DNA of 41,985 nucleotides from a virus (IMGVR_UViG_2548876869_000013:1-41985); one strand, 5' to 3'; counted from the first letter of the stretch, positions 1,403 to 35,339 are shown. The notes: generated by a model from the sequence alone, not told the origin. Numbers and translations: made by a program.

Positions 1403-3313
1403 ATGACCATGACTACACGATATAGATCTGATATTGATGGCCTACGAGCACTTGCTGTCCTTCTTGTTTTTGCTTATCACCTCAAGCTATCACCTTTTAG
1501 TGGCGGCTTTATTGGTGTTGATGTCTTCTTCGTTATCTCTGGATTTCTTATCACTGGTATTGTTATAAAAGCTATTGACAGAAATAGTTTCTCATTATCT
1601 GACTTCTTTAACAGAAGAATAAAGAGAATAGTACCAAATGTTTTTTTAGTTGCATCTTGTACAATTATAGCCGGATGGTTCATCCTATTACCAAAGGATT
1701 ATTCTTCACTTATTAGTAGCTATTTGTACACATCCATCTACGCTGCTAACTTTTATTTTTGGAAAGCGACAGGAGCTTATTTTTCATCTTCTGCAGATGA
1801 GATGCCACTACTTCATATGTGGTCATTGGCCGTAGAGGAGCAATATTACTTTATATGGCCAATTATTATTTTACTTGCACTAAAGCACATTAAGACAAAA
1901 CATATTGGTGTTATTACATTAATAATTTCAGTATTTGCCTTTATATTCTCTGAAATAATGGCAAGGCGTTACGCTGGGTTCTCATATTATATGCCAATCA
2001 CACGCTCTGGAGGCTTGCTTCTAGGGTCCGCCCTAGCATTAATGAATAGAGATTATAAAAAAATAAGGGAGTTTAATTCTTACATAGTAGTAATATTAGG
2101 AACTATTCTTATTGCGGCATCATCTGTAACAGTGAACAAATTATCAGTGTTTCCTGGGTTAAATTCTGCGATACCATCATTTGGTGCAATGTTAGTAATT
2201 TTAGGGGGGAACGGTTTTAATGGCAATGTGATATCAAAAATCTATGGTTCAAAAATAATATCCACAATTGGATTGCTATCATTCTCAATATATCTTTGGC
2301 ACTGGCCGTTGATTGCATATTCAACATATATGGGAGTGATAGACTCACTTGAAGTCAAATTGACAATAGTACTCCTGACATTTATTTTATCATATTTAAG
2401 TTTAAAATTCATTGAGAATCCAATAAGAAAATCAAAAATATCATTTGTTCGTTCTTTTATTTTTATTAACACATTTTTTATTGCAACTGCTTTTATTGTG
2501 TTGTTTATGTCAACTATAACAAATGGCTTCAAATTCAGAAGTGTAGGAGAAAATCATAATTTAGATGTGAAATATGCTGGAATGGACGAAGGATGGTGTC
2601 ATGTTAGCGCAGAAGGAAAAAATGGCATAACTTTTAATGAGTCTATGGCCAAATGTTATATAGGTGATAAAACATCAAATAAAGAAGCTCTATATATTGG
2701 TGATTCCAATGCAGGGCATTACGGTCCATTTGTAGATGAAATGGGTCGCAGGGCTGGAATAAAAATAAATCAACTGAGCACTTCATCTTGTTACCCAACA
2801 AGAGAAGTTAAGAAAGATGGAGAAAACCCTGATGTCTGCATAAACTTCAGAAGAATAATTAATGAAAAAATAAAATCTGGTAAATATGATACAATTATCA
2901 TTGCTAATAGATGGGCAAGGGATGATAAGAATATGTCATATAAAAACGCTAACTTCACCGAGTTCCTATCATTTTACTCATCTCACGCAAAGAAAGTTAT
3001 TATTATGGATCAAATGCCTGAGTGGGTAATAAATCCCGCTGCCTGCTACGAGAGAGGAACATGTGATGCTGAAACTAATTTTGATCTAGCACCAGGATTG
3101 GATGAGTCGCGTAAAAAAATAGAAAGCGCAGCATCACATTTTAATAATGTTTATCTTGTTGACCCGTACTACCTAATGCTTAAGAATAAAAAATACACAC
3201 CTTTCGCAATGGGATACCCTATGTACCATGACAATGGTCATTTAAGCATCAATGGAATGATGTGGATTGCGGAAAAATACTTGCAAGATAATAAAAACCC
3301 ACTTGAAGATTAA
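1403..3313 (+). CDS. Membrane acyltransferase-3 family protein with C-terminal SGNH-like domain (OafA/Oac-like O-antigen acetyltransferase)
   Basis: 640-aa ORF; N-terminal motif RSDIDGLRALAVLLVFAYHL and multiple hydrophobic segments typical of acyltransferase_3; soluble C-terminal half; very AT-rich versus flanks. Start ambiguous (TTG 1391, ATG 1403 or 1409). Confidence 0.75.
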   Translation: MTMTTRYRSDIDGLRALAVLLVFAYHLKLSPFSGGFIGVDVFFVISGFLITGIVIKAIDRNSFSLSDFFNRRIKRIVPNVFLVASCTIIAGWFILLPKDYSSLISSYLYTSIYAANFYFWKATGAYFSSSADEMPLLHMWSLAVEEQYYFIWPIIILLALKHIKTKHIGVITLIISVFAFIFSEIMARRYAGFSYYMPITRSGGLLLGSALALMNRDYKKIREFNSYIVVILGTILIAASSVTVNKLSVFPGLNSAIPSFGAMLVILGGNGFNGNVISKIYGSKIISTIGLLSFSIYLWHWPLIAYSTYMGVIDSLEVKLTIVLLTFILSYLSLKFIENPIRKSKISFVRSFIFINTFFIATAFIVLFMSTITNGFKFRSVGENHNLDVKYAGMDEGWCHVSAEGKNGITFNESMAKCYIGDKTSNKEALYIGDSNAGHYGPFVDEMGRRAGIKINQLSTSSCYPTREVKKDGENPDVCINFRRIINEKIKSGKYDTIIIANRWARDDKNMSYKNANFTEFLSFYSSHAKKVIIMDQMPEWVINPAACYERGTCDAETNFDLAPGLDESRKKIESAASHFNNVYLVDPYYLMLKNKKYTPFAMGYPMYHDNGHLSINGMMWIAEKYLQDNKNPLED

Positions 3314-3337
3314 TTGAGTTATAATTTTTATTGGTAA

Positions 3338-3370
3338 TATGAACCTCTTAATTTATGAGAGGTTCATATT
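3338..3370. terminator. Bidirectional hairpin between convergent acyltransferase and tailspike genes
   Basis: Inverted repeat ATATGAACCTCT..GAGAGGTTCATAT flanked by A/T runs. Confidence 0.6.
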
Positions 3371-3383
3371 TTCATTGAAATAT

Positions 3384-5363
3384 TTAATTGTGCTCCTTAG
3401 CAAAGCGCAAGCTACCTGCGCTTAATACTGCAGATAACGTATCTCCCACTCTAGTCACACTTAAGTTGCTAGTTCCTGCAATGTAACTAACAGTTGTCGT
3501 TGTTGCCAGTGTCATAACTATTGGTATAGTTATGACTCGTTCTGTACCTCCGCTATCAACAAACTGAACAGATAAAAACTGAAACCTTCTATTTATTTTA
3601 TATGAAAATGATAATCCAGATATGGATAATAATCCACTTTGTCCTATTTTTATATTCCAATCAGAAAAATCAGTTATGTTAGATGGGTCTATATTATTTT
3701 GCGAGTACCATGATGTTATTGCGCCTGATGATGTTTTTCCTTTAAAATAAACAAATGAACTACTTGCTTTTTTAAAATTATTATCACATATGATAACCAC
3801 CTCTTGAGTTGATAGTTTAGTTTCATCATAGAATGCGCTGGTAAGTACTGCGTCATCTGCGTTAACACCCCGTATCTCAGAAATCTTAGTCACACCAGCC
3901 CTGTCAGTGTCTTCCGCTTTGTTTATGAGAGAGTCTGTATTGTTTACCCACGCAGACAGCACTCTAGCCACAGGGGTGTTATACTGACGCATCAATTGCG
4001 AAACACCAGAGATAATACCTGCCTTTAAAGTGATTTCCTGGCAATTGTTGCCGTAAGCAAGGATTGGTTTATTCACCCCATCCCATCTATAATTACCAAC
4101 TTCAACATCAATTCGTCCACCACTGCACCATACAACAGCATTTGTTTGTCCTCCGTCAAACTTAACCCCATAAACAGCACCAACTTTAACAAAAGCGTAG
4201 CGTTCGGCGTTTATTTTCATTTGAAGCGGGTTGTTGCTGGTTCCCGTGACGTACCCAATATCTATACGGCAATTATCTCCTGCGCCATCTACGTTAATGC
4301 CGCGGTGGTCAGATCCAATAACCCCGCCAGAGCCGACAACGCTACAGTTTTCACAAGTAAAGAAACCAATAGGGTTGTTGTTGTGCGGTTTAGAATGAAT
4401 GGAGTTATATTCTGTACCTATCTTGCCGTTAAGAATGTAGGTAACATTTTTCATAACAGCTGTAATTGTGTAGTTATTGTCATCCCAAACCGTTGCATCA
4501 GGGTTAAGAAAATGTGCAAAGGACCACATCCCCCCGGAGTTTAACCCCATAATTTCTGGCCCTACCGTGGGGTCATCGTAACGCCCCATAACTGTAACCC
4601 CAGCTTCGTGGTGTATTTCTATATTATCTCGTAAGGGATGAATAGAGCCAAGAACATAAAAAGTACCTGTTGCACCATATTCAAATTTACTGAATCTTGT
4701 GTCTCTTACCAGTTTTTGAATTACATTACGGTTATGCGCAGCGTTTAGCGGAACATATTCACCTTCAATAATGCCAGCGGAAGCGAAATTAGGCGTCATT
4801 AAAATAAGATACCCGCCAACTGCAGAAATATAAAATATAGGTGACTGTGGTTTTTCAGTTGTAAACACCCAATCTGTTACAACTGGAACATTATAATAAT
4901 AAGTTCTAACCTTTTTCCCATCTGTTAACCCTAATATTGATTGGGCCTGTTCAACGGATGAGCATTCGAGAATAGCACCACCAACGATAATGGCTCCTGC
5001 GCTCCCCTGTAATTCTTGCCGTAGCTGATCAGGATCATACTTCAGAACATTAGGAAAATAGAACTGCTGCACACCGTACGCATCATAAATAGCCATAGAA
5101 TGGCCTTGCACAGTTACGAACTTAGCAATCTGTCCGTTATATACCGGATATCCAGCAGCGTTAATGATGATTGGTTGCGAAACAGGAACGTGAGAACCGT
5201 CTTCGTTTTCCACATAAACCTGAATCTGGTTTTCAGGATTTACCGGGTCAGTGTCAATTTTTCCGATATAAATTTTGCCATTGGCTACGGCTTTAAAAGA
5301 ACGAGCCATAGTGAAGAGTTGCGAAGGCATCGATACGATCACATTGGCTGTAATGTCTGTCAT
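3384..5363 (-). CDS. Tailspike protein; P22 gp9-like N-terminal head-binding domain, divergent receptor-binding domain
   Basis: 659 aa; first ~110 aa ([56 protein letters not shown]) closely match recalled P22 tailspike N-terminus; remainder differs. Confidence 0.9.
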
Positions 5364-32817: not shown

Positions 32818-32866
32818 TGTATTCCCGCATTTCGGCGGGAATGAGGACCATGACTGTTAAAGAGCA
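32818..32866 (-). promoter_or_regulatory. nutR-like site (boxA GCTCTTTAACA + boxB hairpin)
   Basis: Minus strand GCUCUUUAACA then UCCCGCCGAAAUGCGGGA; identical pair found in the PL leader. Confidence 0.55.
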
Positions 32867-33138: not shown

Positions 33139-33789
33139 ATGAAAACTCAATTGATGGGAGAGCGCATTCGCGCTCGGAGAAAAGAACTCAAGATCAGGCA
33201 GGCCGCACTTGGAAAGATGGTCGGCGTGTCTAATGTTGCCATATCTCAGTGGGAACGCTCTGAGACAGAGCCAAATGGAGAGAATCTTCTCGCCCTGGCT
33301 AATGCGTTGAAGTGTTCCCCTGACTATCTGATGAAAGGAGAGGAAAGTCTTTCAAACATTGCCTATCACAGTAGGCATGATCCAAGAGGGTCATACCCTC
33401 TGATTAGCTGGGTGAGCGCAGGATGCTGGATGGAAGCTGTAGAACCATATCATAAGCGTGCAATAGATAACTGGTACGATACAACCGTAGACTGTTCAGA
33501 AGATTCGTTTTGGTTGGACGTGAAGGGAGACTCAATGACGGCTCCGGCCGGTCTCAGTATCCCTGAAGGAATGATAATACTCGTCGATCCTGAAGTAGAG
33601 CCGCGTAACGGGAAACTGGTAGTTGCAAAGCTCGAAGGAGAAAACGAGGCAACTTTCAAGAAGTTAGTTATTGATGCAGGCAGGAAGTTTCTAAAACCAC
33701 TTAACCCACAATATCCGATGATCGAGATCAACGGAAACTGCAAAATCATCGGCGTAGTTGTCGATGCAAAACTAGCAAACCTTCCATAA
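33139..33789 (+). CDS. c2: C2 repressor, P22-type, with LexA-like autocleavage domain
   Basis: 216 aa; HTH region and C-terminal S24-like domain closely match recalled P22 C2. Confidence 0.95.
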   Translation: MKTQLMGERIRARRKELKIRQAALGKMVGVSNVAISQWERSETEPNGENLLALANALKCSPDYLMKGEESLSNIAYHSRHDPRGSYPLISWVSAGCWMEAVEPYHKRAIDNWYDTTVDCSEDSFWLDVKGDSMTAPAGLSIPEGMIILVDPEVEPRNGKLVVAKLEGENEATFKKLVIDAGRKFLKPLNPQYPMIEINGNCKIIGVVVDAKLANLP

Positions 33790-33790
33790 G

Positions 33791-33812
33791 GGGGCATTCG
33801 CCCCTTTTTTTT
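33791..33812 (+). terminator. Rho-independent terminator after c2
   Basis: GGGGCATTCGCCCC followed by TTTTTTTT. Confidence 0.75.
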
Positions 33813-33829
33813 ATTTCCTTTAAAAATCA

Positions 33830-33911
33830 AAGCCAAACTTAAGTCACGAAAGAAAATTTAAGTTTTCTTCAAAAATATTCTTGACCGTTAATTAAAGAGA
33901 TCTTAAATTTA
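33830..33911 (+). promoter_or_regulatory. OL operators and PL promoter
   Basis: Operator ATTAAAGAGATCTTAAAT (33891-33908); -35 TTGACC (33881-33886), 17-nt spacer, -10 TAAATT (33904-33909). Confidence 0.6.
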
Positions 33912-33954
33912 AGCCATCAGCAGGACGCTGGTAGCCAAACGGAATAGATTGGCA

Positions 33955-33996
33955 GGCTCTTTAACATTGATGGGATTGTCCCGCCGAAATGCGGGA
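33955..33996 (+). promoter_or_regulatory. nutL-like site (boxA + boxB)
   Basis: GCTCTTTAACA (33955-33965) and hairpin TCCCGCCGAAATGCGGGA (33979-33996), same as nutR. Confidence 0.55.
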
Positions 33997-34560
33997 ACTG
34001 AGTTTAACCAAACAGGAGGTGCCGTAATGGTGCACTAACGCGGTTAGACCGCAGCCGAAAGGCAATGCAGCAGTAATGATGCTGCCCCGAGTCGCGTAAT
34101 GGCGAGCAGGTTTAGCAGACCGATGTGAGGGTAAATAAGGGAACATGCTCCGGAAAGGCAGCGCGAATGCCAGACGCGCACCGGTTATCAGCGGCTAATA
34201 AGCGACAGAGACTCAAGGGCATGAGCGCGCTCACTGCGAGAGTGTGAGTCAAAGAGTAGTTGGCTTTGGGGTGACGTGAAGTGCAGCTGCACGACGGCAA
34301 CCGGAAGATAAGCACCCGGCGCGTCACCGCCAAAGTCAATTCCATAGGCGTTATGCAGCCGCCACCATATTCAAGAAAGCTGCACAAGAGGTAGGAGGAT
34401 TTATGTGAATACTTACATTCAATTGAGAGATTAATTAAATAGAACTGATCGAGCAGAGTCCATAAAGGCTCATAAATGCTCTTCCATCCCCGTCTAATTG
34501 GCGGGGAAGGAAACCACTTTGTAATAAAAAAATTCCAAAGTTGTTTCATCGGAGGTCAAC

Positions 34561-34860
34561 ATGACAGTAGTCATTACATATCTGGCTGACGATAACGCCA
34601 GAAATCGCCGCAGAGCACACAGACAGGCTCAACGTGAACAGGCAATGCAAGAACAGCGACTGGCGCGAAAGATTGCGCTAAAGCTCTCTGGTTGCGTCAG
34701 AGCAGATAAAGCAGCATCACTCGGAAGCCTTCGCTGCAAGAAGGCAGAAGAAGTAGAGAGTAAACAGAATCGTATTTACTACCGCAAGCCACGCAGTGAA
34801 ATGGGTGTGACTTGTGTTGGTCGCCAGAAAATGAAATTAGGCAGCAAACCACTTATTTGA
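34561..34860 (+). CDS. N-like antitermination protein
   Basis: 99 aa; N-terminal arginine-rich motif DNARNRRRAHRQAQREQ; GGAGG RBS; first gene of PL operon. Confidence 0.7.
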   Translation: MTVVITYLADDNARNRRRAHRQAQREQAMQEQRLARKIALKLSGCVRADKAASLGSLRCKKAEEVESKQNRIYYRKPRSEMGVTCVGRQKMKLGSKPLI

Positions 34861-34868
34861 GGTGAGAT

Positions 34869-35339
34869 ATGACAAAATCATGGAGCGTACCTTTTCCTGA
34901 ATCAGAAACTGAACATGATGGAATGCCTGTTTTCTGGAGATTCCAGGCGACAGTTGAAGAAGATGGGATAAAAATATTCGCACTTCAATATATAGCTTTT
35001 CATCAGACAGAGCATTATGCATGGTTGGTTCCTGCGCATTGGATTGTTAATTTTAAACCAGCACCAAATCAGTGGTTACAGGAATGGAAACAAAGGAGAA
35101 ATAGATATGCAATTAAGAAAGTAGCAAAAAATGCAGAAAGATCTTTTGCATTCCCAACGAAGAAACTTGCCATTGAGAGTTTATTGCGCCGGAAGAAATA
35201 CCATTTAATGAGAATCAAACAAGATTTGGCTGTTGTATCAACTCTTGTTGATGGGATGAAGAATATTGATACATCAACACCAGATATTGAATATAACTTT
35301 GGGCACAACCAAGAAACAGAAAATTGGGTATTTTATTAG
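34869..35339 (+). CDS. Hypothetical AT-rich early-left moron protein (156 aa)
   Basis: GAGGTGAG RBS; composition much more AT-rich than neighbours; no family recognised. Confidence 0.55.
   Translation: MTKSWSVPFPESETEHDGMPVFWRFQATVEEDGIKIFALQYIAFHQTEHYAWLVPAHWIVNFKPAPNQWLQEWKQRRNRYAIKKVAKNAERSFAFPTKKLAIESLLRRKKYHLMRIKQDLAVVSTLVDGMKNIDTSTPDIEYNFGHNQETENWVFY

What the first reader, a model, noticed from the sequence alone, without database searches (positions are those of the whole stretch)
33997..34560. 565-nt ORF-free, GC-rich, highly structured leader between nutL and N
In lambda and P22 the N gene follows nutL within tens of nucleotides. Here boxB ends at 33996 and N starts at 34561. The interval is more GC-rich than its flanks, has no plus-strand ORF longer than ~26 codons, and contains many stem-loops: GCAGCA-GUAAUGA-UGCUGC (34066-34084), palindrome GAGCGCGCTC (34223-34232), and a ~60-nt element 34270-34328 closed by GGUGACG/CGUCACC enclosing two internal hairpins. 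This looks like a structured RNA (regulatory leader, processed sRNA or a defence-interfering RNA) or the relic of an inserted element. The site just downstream of the repressor is a known hotspot for exclusion/defence genes in lambdoid phages.
Basis: seen in the sequence. Interest (0 to 1): 0.5.

Follow-up and report, generated by a model that had tools for sequence, protein, structure and literature searches.

The report
Expanded N leader carrying novel RNA
The long gap between nutL and the N gene of this E. coli prophage is a lambda-type N leader into which two extra non-coding pieces have been spliced; one of them is a folded RNA shared by many enterobacterial phages, absent from RNA family catalogues, that begins with its own tiny ribosome-loading reading frame and has no known job.

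Summary
The interval is real and non-coding, but it is a mosaic, not one element. The window is an E. coli 55989 prophage. PL (+1 about 33916) and nutL (33956-33995) are followed by three modules.

Module A (33999-34249) is absent from CUS-3 and HK620. It is a roughly 235-nt, ten-helix RNA preceded by a Shine-Dalgarno site and a 3-codon mini-ORF that stops at the foot of the first helix.

Module B (34258-34341) is a long hairpin homologous to the base of the lambda N-leader stem, which is the RNase III site.

Module C (34342-34545) is AT-rich. It has a conserved SD plus start-stop and two hairpins that sequester the N Shine-Dalgarno.

Module A is the interesting part. About 160 copies occur in Enterobacterales phages and prophages, mostly in sense. 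They lie just after cI/PL-nut, after Q, or after the lysis genes.

Compensatory changes occur in 25 of 48 pairs (shuffle maximum 19). G-U outnumbers A-C 250 to 75. No Rfam, Pfam or PHROG match was found.

Function of A is unknown; I favour a ribosome-engaging passenger RNA.

The parts
33881..33909 (+). PL promoter (TTGACC-17-TAAATT); transcript start about 33916
   Evidence: The promoter scan gave its only hit here. The 14-nt CATCAGCAGGACGC is identical to the lambda pL start region. The cI terminator at 33788-33812 lies just upstream.
33956..33995 (+). nutL: boxA GCTCTTTAAC (33956-33965) and boxB hairpin CCCGC-CGAAAU-GCGGG (33980-33995)
   Evidence: An exact second copy lies at 32824-32865 on the minus strand, downstream of cro (nutR); 0 chance matches are expected. 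It is colinear with lambda boxA/boxB.
33999..34249 (+). Module A: inserted RNA cassette (251 nt), absent from CUS-3, HK620 and UTI89 leaders
   Evidence: CUS-3 aligns 33790-33998 and 34250-34871 with nothing between. The cassette recurs in mEp213, Stx2c phages, Hafnia yong1, Klebsiella RothC, Providencia PSTCR7lys and E. coli 733R5. It is found in more than 120 IMG/VR contigs, 37 GTDB genomes and 113 of 5426 E. coli genomes.
34014..34038 (+). Shine-Dalgarno AGGAGG (34014-34019), 7-nt spacer, mini-ORF ATG GTG CAC TAA (34027-34038)
   Evidence: Of 93 non-redundant members, 88 have a start codon here (81 ATG, 7 TTG) and 84 have an SD-like site. In 81 of those 88 the ORF has 1-3 sense codons. The stop ends 0-1 nt before helix P1 in 58.
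34040..34248 (+). Structured core of module A. Helices: P1 34040-43/49-52; P2 34054-56/61-63; P3 34067-72/80-85; Px 34086-88/34129-31; P4 34092-95/34102-05; P5 34109-11/19-21; P6 34150-53/81-84; P7 34161-65/75-79; P8 34191-95, 34202-03, 34212-15, 34222-28; P9 34230-34/44-48
   Evidence: 95.6% of cells are paired. 25 of 48 pairs show changes on both sides, against a shuffle mean of 13.2 and maximum of 19 in 300 shuffles. Slid partners give 27-39% paired. G-U cells number 250 against 75 A-C cells, which identifies the + strand as the RNA. P1 and P8 are invariant and therefore not proven. Window coordinates of the helices were mapped by hand from the sequence.
34258..34341 (+). Module B: long N-leader hairpin, the homologue of the lambda N-leader stem that holds the RNase III site
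   Evidence: dG is -41.3 kcal/mol, z -4.9, 0 of 200 shuffles fold as well. Lambda folds likewise (z -4.6). It shares UCAAAG..GGCUUUGGGGUG on the 5' side and CACC.CCAAAG on the 3' side, in the same place after boxB. It is present in HK620, CUS-3, HK140, mEp213 and many others. Cleavage by RNase III is inferred, not shown.
34342..34545 (+). Module C: AT-rich leader extension. It has a conserved SD + start-stop (AGGAGG 34393-98, ATG TGA 34403-08), hairpins at 34487-34507 and 34510-34546, and an anti-SD CUUCC at 34481-85.
   Evidence: It is present full-length next to N in 159 of 5426 E. coli genomes (UTI89, NU14), CUS-3 and HK140, and absent in mEp213 and HK620. Three variants at 72-100% identity differ by 2-nt indels, so there is no conserved ORF. 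SD/ATG/TGA and both hairpin stems are conserved. The fold of 34480-34560 has dG -30.1 kcal/mol and z -5.1, with the N SD paired.
34551..34860 (+). N Shine-Dalgarno GGAGG (34551-55) and N gene (34561-34860, 99 aa, arginine-rich motif NARNRRRAHRQAQ)
   Evidence: phrog_271 'anti-termination protein N-like', E 1.2e-35. The C-terminus aligns to lambda N at 51% over 37 aa.

Best explanation
The interval is a lambda-type N leader enlarged by two non-coding insertions. The scaffold is PL, nutL, a long stem, then the Shine-Dalgarno site and N.

Module B is the ancestral stem. In lambda this stem is cut by RNase III and brings nutL close to the N ribosome site.

Module C is an N-linked extension. Its 3' half folds so that CUUCC pairs with the N Shine-Dalgarno, so it probably throttles N translation.

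Module A is a self-contained RNA cassette that enterobacterial temperate phages exchange horizontally. They carry it in sense at the heads of antiterminated operons, or inside them: right after nut, right after Q and its terminator, or after the lysis genes. It has no promoter or terminator of its own, so it is made only when those operons are read, during lytic growth.

A strong Shine-Dalgarno and a 1-3-codon ORF load a ribosome that must stop exactly at the foot of helix P1. A roughly 210-nt fold with many invariant loop and junction bases follows.

My commitment is that A is a passenger 'RNA moron' and not an N regulator. I think it works through its conserved fold on a conserved host machine, most probably the translation apparatus. 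The mini-ORF ribosome would gate or anchor the fold, because terminating there requires melting P1. Here RNase III cleavage in B would leave A on the nutL-bearing 5' fragment of about 350 nt.

Shown: the mosaic structure, the conservation, the covariation, the strand, the mini-ORF conservation, the genomic contexts, and the homology of B to lambda. Inferred: translation of the mini-ORF, processing, SD sequestration, and any target of A.
For: Mosaic structure.

A as a conserved structured RNA on the + strand.

Mini-ORF conserved in form but not in sequence.

Context independence: the upstream neighbour is a CI-like repressor in 23, a Q antiterminator in about 26 and an Rz spanin in about 20 of 134 distinct flanks. 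Downstream genes are unrelated.

Sense orientation: 79% of flanking long-ORF bases lie on the same strand, and 111 of 162 instances are at least 70% same-strand.

Fixed position about 50 nt after boxA in 16 distinct flanks. A terminator-like hairpin plus U-tract lies directly 5' of the SD in Q contexts.

Neighbours that are stable RNAs: tRNAs and STnc100. The downstream 130 nt are often strongly structured (39 of 90 with z below -2).

No coding signal and no Rfam family.

B is homologous to the lambda stem. Lambda N autoregulation through nutL and a structured leader is described in PMC5725501.

C sequesters the N SD.
Against: There are no expression, end-mapping or ribosome data.

The MFE of A alone is unremarkable (z -1.0). 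P1, P8 and the proposed P1 alternatives are invariant, so the 'gating' step has no covariation support.

Most of the aligned copies were recruited with a pattern that fixes 21 bases of the 3' domain. The independent pattern and the BLAST hits show the same conservation.

The sequences are related, so shuffle controls overstate significance.

A purely cis role would also fit the positions of A at operon heads.

Large anonymous catalogues of phage RNA candidates exist (PMC10690425, PMC8040213). I could not search them, so prior listing cannot be excluded.
Confidence: 0.6

Rival explanations
1. Module A is a cis-acting element for the transcription complex that made it. It would be a put-like RNA that keeps RNA polymerase processive, or a structured, G-rich, ribosome-capped shield. 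Such a shield would stop Rho and RNases from aborting long untranslated stretches at operon heads before or without N or Q modification.
For: A sits at the heads of antiterminated operons, in sense, with no promoter or terminator of its own. It is independent of downstream gene identity. It has positive GC skew, so it is G-rich and a poor Rho loading site. The leader here is about 644 nt, and N cannot protect its own first transcripts (inference).
Against: These phages already have N/nut and Q, and in Q contexts the cassette lies beyond the terminator that only Q-modified polymerase passes. A shield would not need about 100 near-invariant bases across genera. put RNAs are about 70 nt with two stems and no ribosome site (my knowledge; not compared by sequence). 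The post-lysis position is not an operon head.
Confidence: 0.2
2. The mini-ORF is the active part. It would be a bar-like minigene expressed from the strongest phage promoters that drains the host of tRNA or peptidyl-tRNA hydrolase capacity, or parks ribosomes. The RNA fold would only boost re-initiation or stability.
For: SD + AUG + 0-2 codons + stop is conserved in 81 of 93 members while the codons vary. Lambda bar minigenes have the same form and lie in the PL operon (my knowledge). A second conserved SD + start-stop lies in module C.
Against: The fold is far more conserved than the minigene. Five members lack a start codon. bar toxicity is seen only in Pth-deficient hosts (my knowledge). 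One minigene per transcript is a weak sink.
Confidence: 0.1
3. The whole interval is an N-specific regulatory leader. A, B and C together would tune N translation and autoregulation, as the lambda leader does.
For: B is the lambda stem homologue and C pairs with the N SD. A lies at a fixed distance from nut in 16 flanks. N-nutL translational repression depends on leader geometry (PMC5725501).
Against: A occurs without N: after Q, before tRNAs and lysis genes, and between lysis and terminase genes. Close relatives with the same N lack A (CUS-3, UTI89) or lack C (mEp213).
Confidence: 0.07
4. It is non-functional mosaic debris: decayed gene fragments or DNA-level 'boundary sequences' that merely mark recombination joints. 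Alternatively, the 145-codon minus-strand ORF is a real gene.
For: CUS-3 annotates the cI-N gap as a boundary sequence. UTI89 annotates the minus-strand ORF. Part of C resembles the lambda N SD and start, and another part resembles the PL spacer.
Against: Compensatory base changes and a G-U excess show selection on an RNA of the + strand. A is conserved from Escherichia to Xenorhabdus while its flanks are unrelated. The minus-strand ORF crosses three independently assorting modules, is broken by 2-nt indels in variants, and matches nothing.
Confidence: 0.03

Closest known systems
Lambda N leader (nutL, RNase III-sensitive stem, N ribosome site)
   Same: It has the same order of parts and recognisable sequence homology from the pL start through boxA, boxB and the 5' and 3' base of the stem. 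An N-like protein lies downstream.
   Different: 251 nt (A) are inserted between boxB and the stem, and 205 nt (C) between the stem and the N SD. The stem therefore no longer juxtaposes nutL and the N ribosome site. The leader is about 644 nt against 223 nt in lambda.
Lambda bar minigenes (SD + AUG + one sense codon + stop in the PL operon)
   Same: A strong SD and an ORF of 1-3 sense codons, transcribed from PL.
   Different: The mini-ORF here is fused to a conserved ten-helix RNA, its codons are variable, and it is also found in late operons. Toxicity was not tested.
HK022 put RNAs (cis-acting antiterminator RNAs just downstream of PL and PR)
   Same: Sense-strand structured RNA placed immediately downstream of early promoters of a lambdoid phage, with function independent of the genes that follow.
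   Different: A is three times larger, carries a ribosome site and mini-ORF, coexists with N/nut and Q, and also occurs mid-operon. No sequence comparison was made.
Prophage 'moron' small RNAs downstream of PR' (AsxR/AgvB, STnc100/PasD)
   Same: Same insertion hot spot downstream of Q (PMC4104026; bioRxiv 10.64898/2026.05.13.724894). STnc100 lies next to the cassette in one locus.
   Different: Those are 50-200-nt Hfq-type base-pairing RNAs with their own terminators and Rfam models. A matches none of them and has no terminator.
Short-ORF plus stable structure 'ribosome shunt' leaders (cauliflower mosaic virus) and T4 gene 60 bypass
   Same: A very short ORF ends at the foot of a large structured element. 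This is an analogy in function only.
   Different: These are eukaryotic or single-gene systems. There is no evidence here that ribosomes resume downstream, and the downstream genes have their own SD.
Large phage-associated structured RNAs of unknown function (GOLLD, ROOL)
   Same: Ornate conserved folds in prophages, sometimes beside tRNAs, with function unknown.
   Different: Different size, sequence and hosts; no Rfam hit; those RNAs have no mini-ORF.

Membership tests
Lambda-type N leader | PL promoter followed by boxA and boxB, repeated as nutR | tested here: met
Lambda-type N leader | Long stable stem between nutL and the N ribosome site, homologous to the lambda stem | tested here: met
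Lambda-type N leader | The stem brings nutL within a few tens of nt of the N SD | tested here: not met
   A (251 nt) and C (205 nt) separate them. This feature is met in the relatives HK620 and mEp213 on the 3' side, and in CUS-3 on the 5' side.
Lambda-type N leader | RNase III cleavage of the stem; N-dependent translational repression | not testable with these tools
   Needs RNA end mapping in rnc+ and rnc- cells.
Lambda-type N leader | N protein with an arginine-rich motif downstream | tested here: met
   phrog_271, E 1e-35
Any Rfam 15 family (riboswitches, ribozymes, introns, sRNAs, tmRNA, RNase P, SRP, STnc100 and others) | Covariance-model score at or near the gathering threshold | tested here: not met
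   There are no hits on the cassette in the window or in 18 other loci, even at E up to 10. ARAGORN found none.
bar-like minigene | SD, AUG, 1-2 sense codons and a stop, in a strongly transcribed phage operon | tested here: met
bar-like minigene | Inhibits growth or translation when Pth is limiting | not testable with these tools
   Needs expression in pth(ts) cells.
HK022 put RNA | Two-stem RNA of about 70 nt that substitutes for N/nut | tested here: not met
   The core is about 210 nt with ten helices, and nutL, nutR and N are present. Sequence similarity to put was not tested.
Autonomous sRNA gene | Own promoter and intrinsic terminator | tested here: not met
   There is no promoter or + strand terminator between 33910 and 34560. 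P9 is not followed by a U-tract.
Riboswitch or cis leader of a specific gene | Constant downstream gene family and an expression platform | tested here: not met
   The 113 downstream ORFs fall into 65 unrelated clusters, and an ORF from the invariant internal AUG has random length.
Protein-coding gene or pseudogene | Conserved reading frame or a family match | tested here: not met

The most novel reading that the evidence does not exclude
Module A founds a new class of phage RNA. It would be a ribosome-loading mini-ORF fused to a conserved ten-helix fold that acts directly on the host translation or transcription-elongation machinery. Possible actions include capturing or reprogramming the ribosome that translates it, or serving as an RNA-only anti-termination or anti-defence device. 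The cassette would move between lambdoid phages as an RNA-only accessory gene.
Probability: 0.3. Interest if true: 0.85.

Novelty: categorically new. Interest (0 to 1): 0.66.

Why it matters
The lambda PL-nutL-N region is one of the most studied pieces of DNA in biology. In a family of its relatives this spot, and the equivalent spot after Q, carries a well-conserved RNA that no catalogue or paper I could find describes.

A conserved fold welded to a start-and-stop reading frame would, if it engages the ribosome, be a new way for a virus to use RNA against or with its host.

It is directly testable. Natural isogenic-like pairs exist, such as the 55989 prophage against CUS-3 or UTI89, and mEp213, so deletion, start-codon and loop mutants can be built in cultivable coliphages.

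The finding also shows that N leaders tolerate insertions that break the nutL-stem-SD geometry thought to underlie N autoregulation.

Caveat: only module A is new. The scaffold (B) is textbook.

Tried and rejected
- Rfam was run at gathering and at E up to 10 on the window and on 18 other loci. Nothing hit the cassette.
- tRNA and tmRNA were searched for; none were found.
- Pfam and PHROGs were run on every ORF of the interval, including the 145-aa minus-strand ORF. There were no matches.
- The minus-strand ORF is rejected as a gene, because it is broken by 2-nt indels in variants.
- The intron or bypass idea (mini-ORF continued after the element) is rejected. There is no downstream frame in the window, and ORFs from the invariant internal AUG have random lengths.
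- A closing helix between the mini-ORF region and the 3' tail shows no signal (median z -0.1).
- Transposon-like ends were looked for. There are no flanking direct or inverted repeats, and CUS-3 shows a clean junction.
- tRNA linkage holds only in a few loci.
- Literal-sequence and keyword literature searches found no description. Pas sRNAs, the Minerva preprint and the EHEC anti-sRNAs concern other RNAs.
- Wilson et al. 2002 could not be fetched. Supplements of the phage RNA catalogue are not held.
- The consensus terminator scanner did not call the hairpin + U-tract upstream of the cassette in Q contexts, although folding supports it.
- My own regular expression for terminators failed.
- I did not build a covariance model; nhmmer was sufficient to collect members.

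Full report
WHERE WE ARE. The window is a lambdoid prophage of E. coli 55989 (100% identity; annotation). On the + strand, the repressor gene (33139-33789) ends in an intrinsic terminator (33788-33812). A single promoter-like site follows (TTGACC-17-TAAATT, 33881-33909). The next 14 nt, CATCAGCAGGACGC, are identical to the start of the lambda pL transcript, which places +1 near 33916.

boxA-boxB occupies 33956-33995. An exact second copy lies on the other strand just past cro (32824-32865), with no chance matches expected. These are therefore nutL and nutR.

The ORF at 34561-34860 is an N protein (phrog_271, E 1e-35; its C-terminus is 51% identical to lambda N).

THE OBSERVATION. GC is 55-56% over 34000-34400 but only 38-44% over 34400-34560. 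Plus-strand ORFs reach 40 codons, and a 145-codon ORF runs on the minus strand. None matches Pfam or PHROGs.

In lambda, nutL ends 79 nt before the annotated N start. From my own knowledge of the 223-nt leader, it ends about 157 nt before the accepted start. The intervening RNA is known to be highly structured and to take part in N autoregulation (PMC5725501, citing Wilson et al. 1997 and 2002).

THE INTERVAL IS A MOSAIC OF THREE MODULES. Phage CUS-3 (and UTI89) aligns at 97-99% to 33790-33998 and to 34250-34871, with nothing in between. Phage mEp213 aligns to 33980-34340 and 34546-34752. This defines three modules:
- A = 33999-34249
- B = about 34250-34341
- C = 34342-34545

The modules assort independently. 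HK620-type phages have B only. CUS-3, HK140 and UTI89 have B+C. mEp213 has A+B. The window has A+B+C. No direct or inverted repeats flank A, so it arrived by mosaic recombination rather than by transposition.

MODULE B IS THE CLASSICAL N-LEADER STEM. The segment 34258-34341 folds into a long hairpin with 21 pairs in its base (dG -41 kcal/mol, z -4.9). The lambda leader folds the same way (z -4.6).

The two share UCAAAG..GGCUUUGGGGUG on the 5' side and CACC.CCAAAG on the 3' side, at the same position after boxB. RNase III cleavage is inferred from lambda, not shown.

MODULE C IS TIED TO N. It occurs full-length next to N in 159 of 5426 complete E. coli genomes. Three variants at 72-100% identity differ by 2-nt indels, so neither strand encodes a conserved protein. 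The minus-strand 'hypothetical protein' annotated in UTI89 is spurious.

The conserved features of C are:
- an SD plus start-stop (AGGAGG-AUUU-AUG-UGA, 34393-34408) that resembles the lambda N ribosome site and start and may be a relic
- two hairpin stems with variable loops
- a CUUCC/CUUUC tract

The segment 34480-34560 folds (dG -30 kcal/mol, z -5.1) so that CUUCC pairs with the N Shine-Dalgarno. I infer that C acts as a translational throttle on N.

MODULE A IS THE NOVEL PART. BLAST found it at 77-89% identity in phages of Hafnia, Klebsiella, Providencia and E. coli, but in different places:
- after cI-rexAB and before the early-left genes (Hafnia yong1)
- directly after Q and before two tRNAs and the lysis genes (Klebsiella RothC)
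- between the lysis genes and the terminase genes (733R5)

A 21-base pattern from its 3' domain retrieved more than 120 IMG/VR contigs. An independent pattern from its middle retrieved 37 true copies among GTDB species genomes. Nearly all of those are Enterobacterales, including Kluyvera, Citrobacter, Enterobacter, Hafnia, Xenorhabdus, Ewingella, Rahnella and Tatumella. In E. coli it is present in 113 of 5426 complete genomes and is never annotated as RNA.

STRUCTURE OF MODULE A. I used 93 members, each less than 93% identical to any other. RNAalifold and mutual information recover local hairpins and a long-range helix.

For my ten-helix model, 95.6% of cells are canonical pairs and 25 of 48 pairs show changes on both sides. 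Column shuffles give a mean of 13.2 and a maximum of 19 (0 of 300 reach the observed value). Slid partners give 27-39% pairing.

Helices P2, P3, Px (C116-G154: CG 61, UA 29), P4, P5, P7 and P9 covary. P6 has one compensatory pair. P1 and P8 are invariant and therefore unproven.

G-U cells outnumber A-C cells 250 to 75, so the functional strand is the one transcribed from PL. Single-sequence energy is not exceptional (z -1.0).

Caveats: the sequences are related, and most were recruited with a pattern that fixes part of P8.

A CONSERVED MINI-ORF. Immediately 5' of the fold, 88 of 93 members have a start codon (81 ATG, 7 TTG), and 84 of these have an SD-like site. In 81 of the 88 the ORF has only 1-3 sense codons, and the peptide varies (M, MKH, MHQ, MVH, MKQ and others). 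The stop ends 0-1 nt before P1 in 58 members. In the window the sequence is AGGAGG-N7-ATG GTG CAC TAA (34014-34038).

A ribosome terminating there must unwind P1. This is the basis for my 'ribosome-gated or anchored' proposal, which is inference.

CONTEXT. The nearest same-strand upstream gene is a CI-like repressor in 23 of 134 distinct flanks, a Q antiterminator in about 26, and an Rz spanin in about 20. Downstream genes are unrelated.

79% of neighbouring long-ORF bases lie on the same strand. In 16 distinct flanks boxA ends 45-55 nt before the cassette, as it does here. In Q contexts a terminator-like hairpin with a U-tract directly precedes the SD, although the consensus scanner did not call it.

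The cassette has no promoter or terminator of its own. tRNAs or STnc100 sometimes follow it, and the next 130 nt are often strongly structured.

WHAT IT IS NOT. Module A is excluded from each of the following:
- any Rfam 15 family, in 19 loci at E up to 10
- tRNA or tmRNA
- a coding sequence
- an intron or bypass element
- an N-specific leader, given its other contexts

Literature searches found no description. The prophage sRNAs known at the PR' moron site are different molecules. Anonymous bulk catalogues of phage RNA candidates (PMC10690425) could not be checked.

MECHANISM. For B and C I adopt the lambda model, in which the stem, RNase III and SD access tune N. The two insertions break the compact nutL-stem-SD geometry.

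For A, the many invariant loop and junction bases across genera argue for recognition by a conserved host machine. The SD and mini-ORF point to the ribosome. The positions after nut and after Q/tR' leave a put-like or anti-Rho cis role as the main rival, and a bar-like minigene role as a third option.

I rate the identity claims (mosaic structure; A is a real, uncatalogued structured RNA on the + strand; B is the lambda-stem homologue) at about 0.85. I rate the specific ribosome-engaging passenger mechanism at about 0.35.

Noticed in passing
L002 (mEp213) 1755-3512: mEp213 carries two N cassettes. One is an HK244-type N right after PL. After three small genes there is a degenerate boxB + module A + module B + an HK620-type N (alignment).
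   Followed up: partly
window 34112-34549 (-): This 145-codon ORF antisense to the leader is annotated as a hypothetical protein in UTI89 (WP_011478232.1). It spans three independently assorting modules and is broken by 2-nt indels in variants, so it is probably a spurious gene call.
   Followed up: yes
window 34393-34408: A second SD + start-stop (AGGAGG-ATTT-ATG-TGA) is invariant among diverged module C variants. It resembles the lambda N ribosome site and start, so it may be a relic of a replaced N gene or a second ribosome-parking site.
   Followed up: partly
window 34481-34555: The N Shine-Dalgarno GGAGG (34551-55) pairs with CUUCC (34481-85) across two conserved hairpins (dG -30 kcal/mol, z -5.1). 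The variants keep the pairing through G-U.
   Followed up: partly
window 33888-33903 and 34431-34446: A 16-nt stretch of the PL spacer/operator region (TTAATTAAAGAGATCT) recurs at 88% in module C, preceded by TTGAGA. The TTAATTAAAT core is invariant in C variants. It could be a promoter or operator relic, or chance.
   Followed up: no
L014 3632-3804; L024 4862-5028 (-); L005 2789-2948; L043 11356-11426: STnc100 (RF02076) lies directly 3' of the cassette in one locus and 2 kb 5' of it in another. tRNA genes directly follow it in several loci. Together this suggests a cluster of stable RNAs at the post-Q moron site.
   Followed up: partly
window 34869-35339: The gene after N is a 156-aa protein of unknown function (phrog_1636, E 3e-112). 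It sits where CUS-3 and UTI89 carry ral.
   Followed up: no
phrog_271 profile; L204 (lambda) 138-539: This N aligns to positions 58-170 of the 176-position phrog_271 profile, and the lambda record annotates a 133-aa N. Many database N proteins seem to be called from upstream starts inside the leader.
   Followed up: no
L168 (Vagococcus sp.), L190 (Bacillales MAG): Full-length cassette copies occur in assemblies labelled as Firmicutes. The likely explanation is contamination or mis-binning by enterobacterial prophage DNA.
   Followed up: no
window 34012-34042: In the window's subfamily, the SD and mini-ORF region (ACAGGAGGUGCCGUAAUGGUGCACUAACGCG) is 68% identical to the lambda N SD and start (ACAGGAGAAUCCAGAUGGAUGCACAAACACG). 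The E-value is 1.7, so this may be chance.
   Followed up: no
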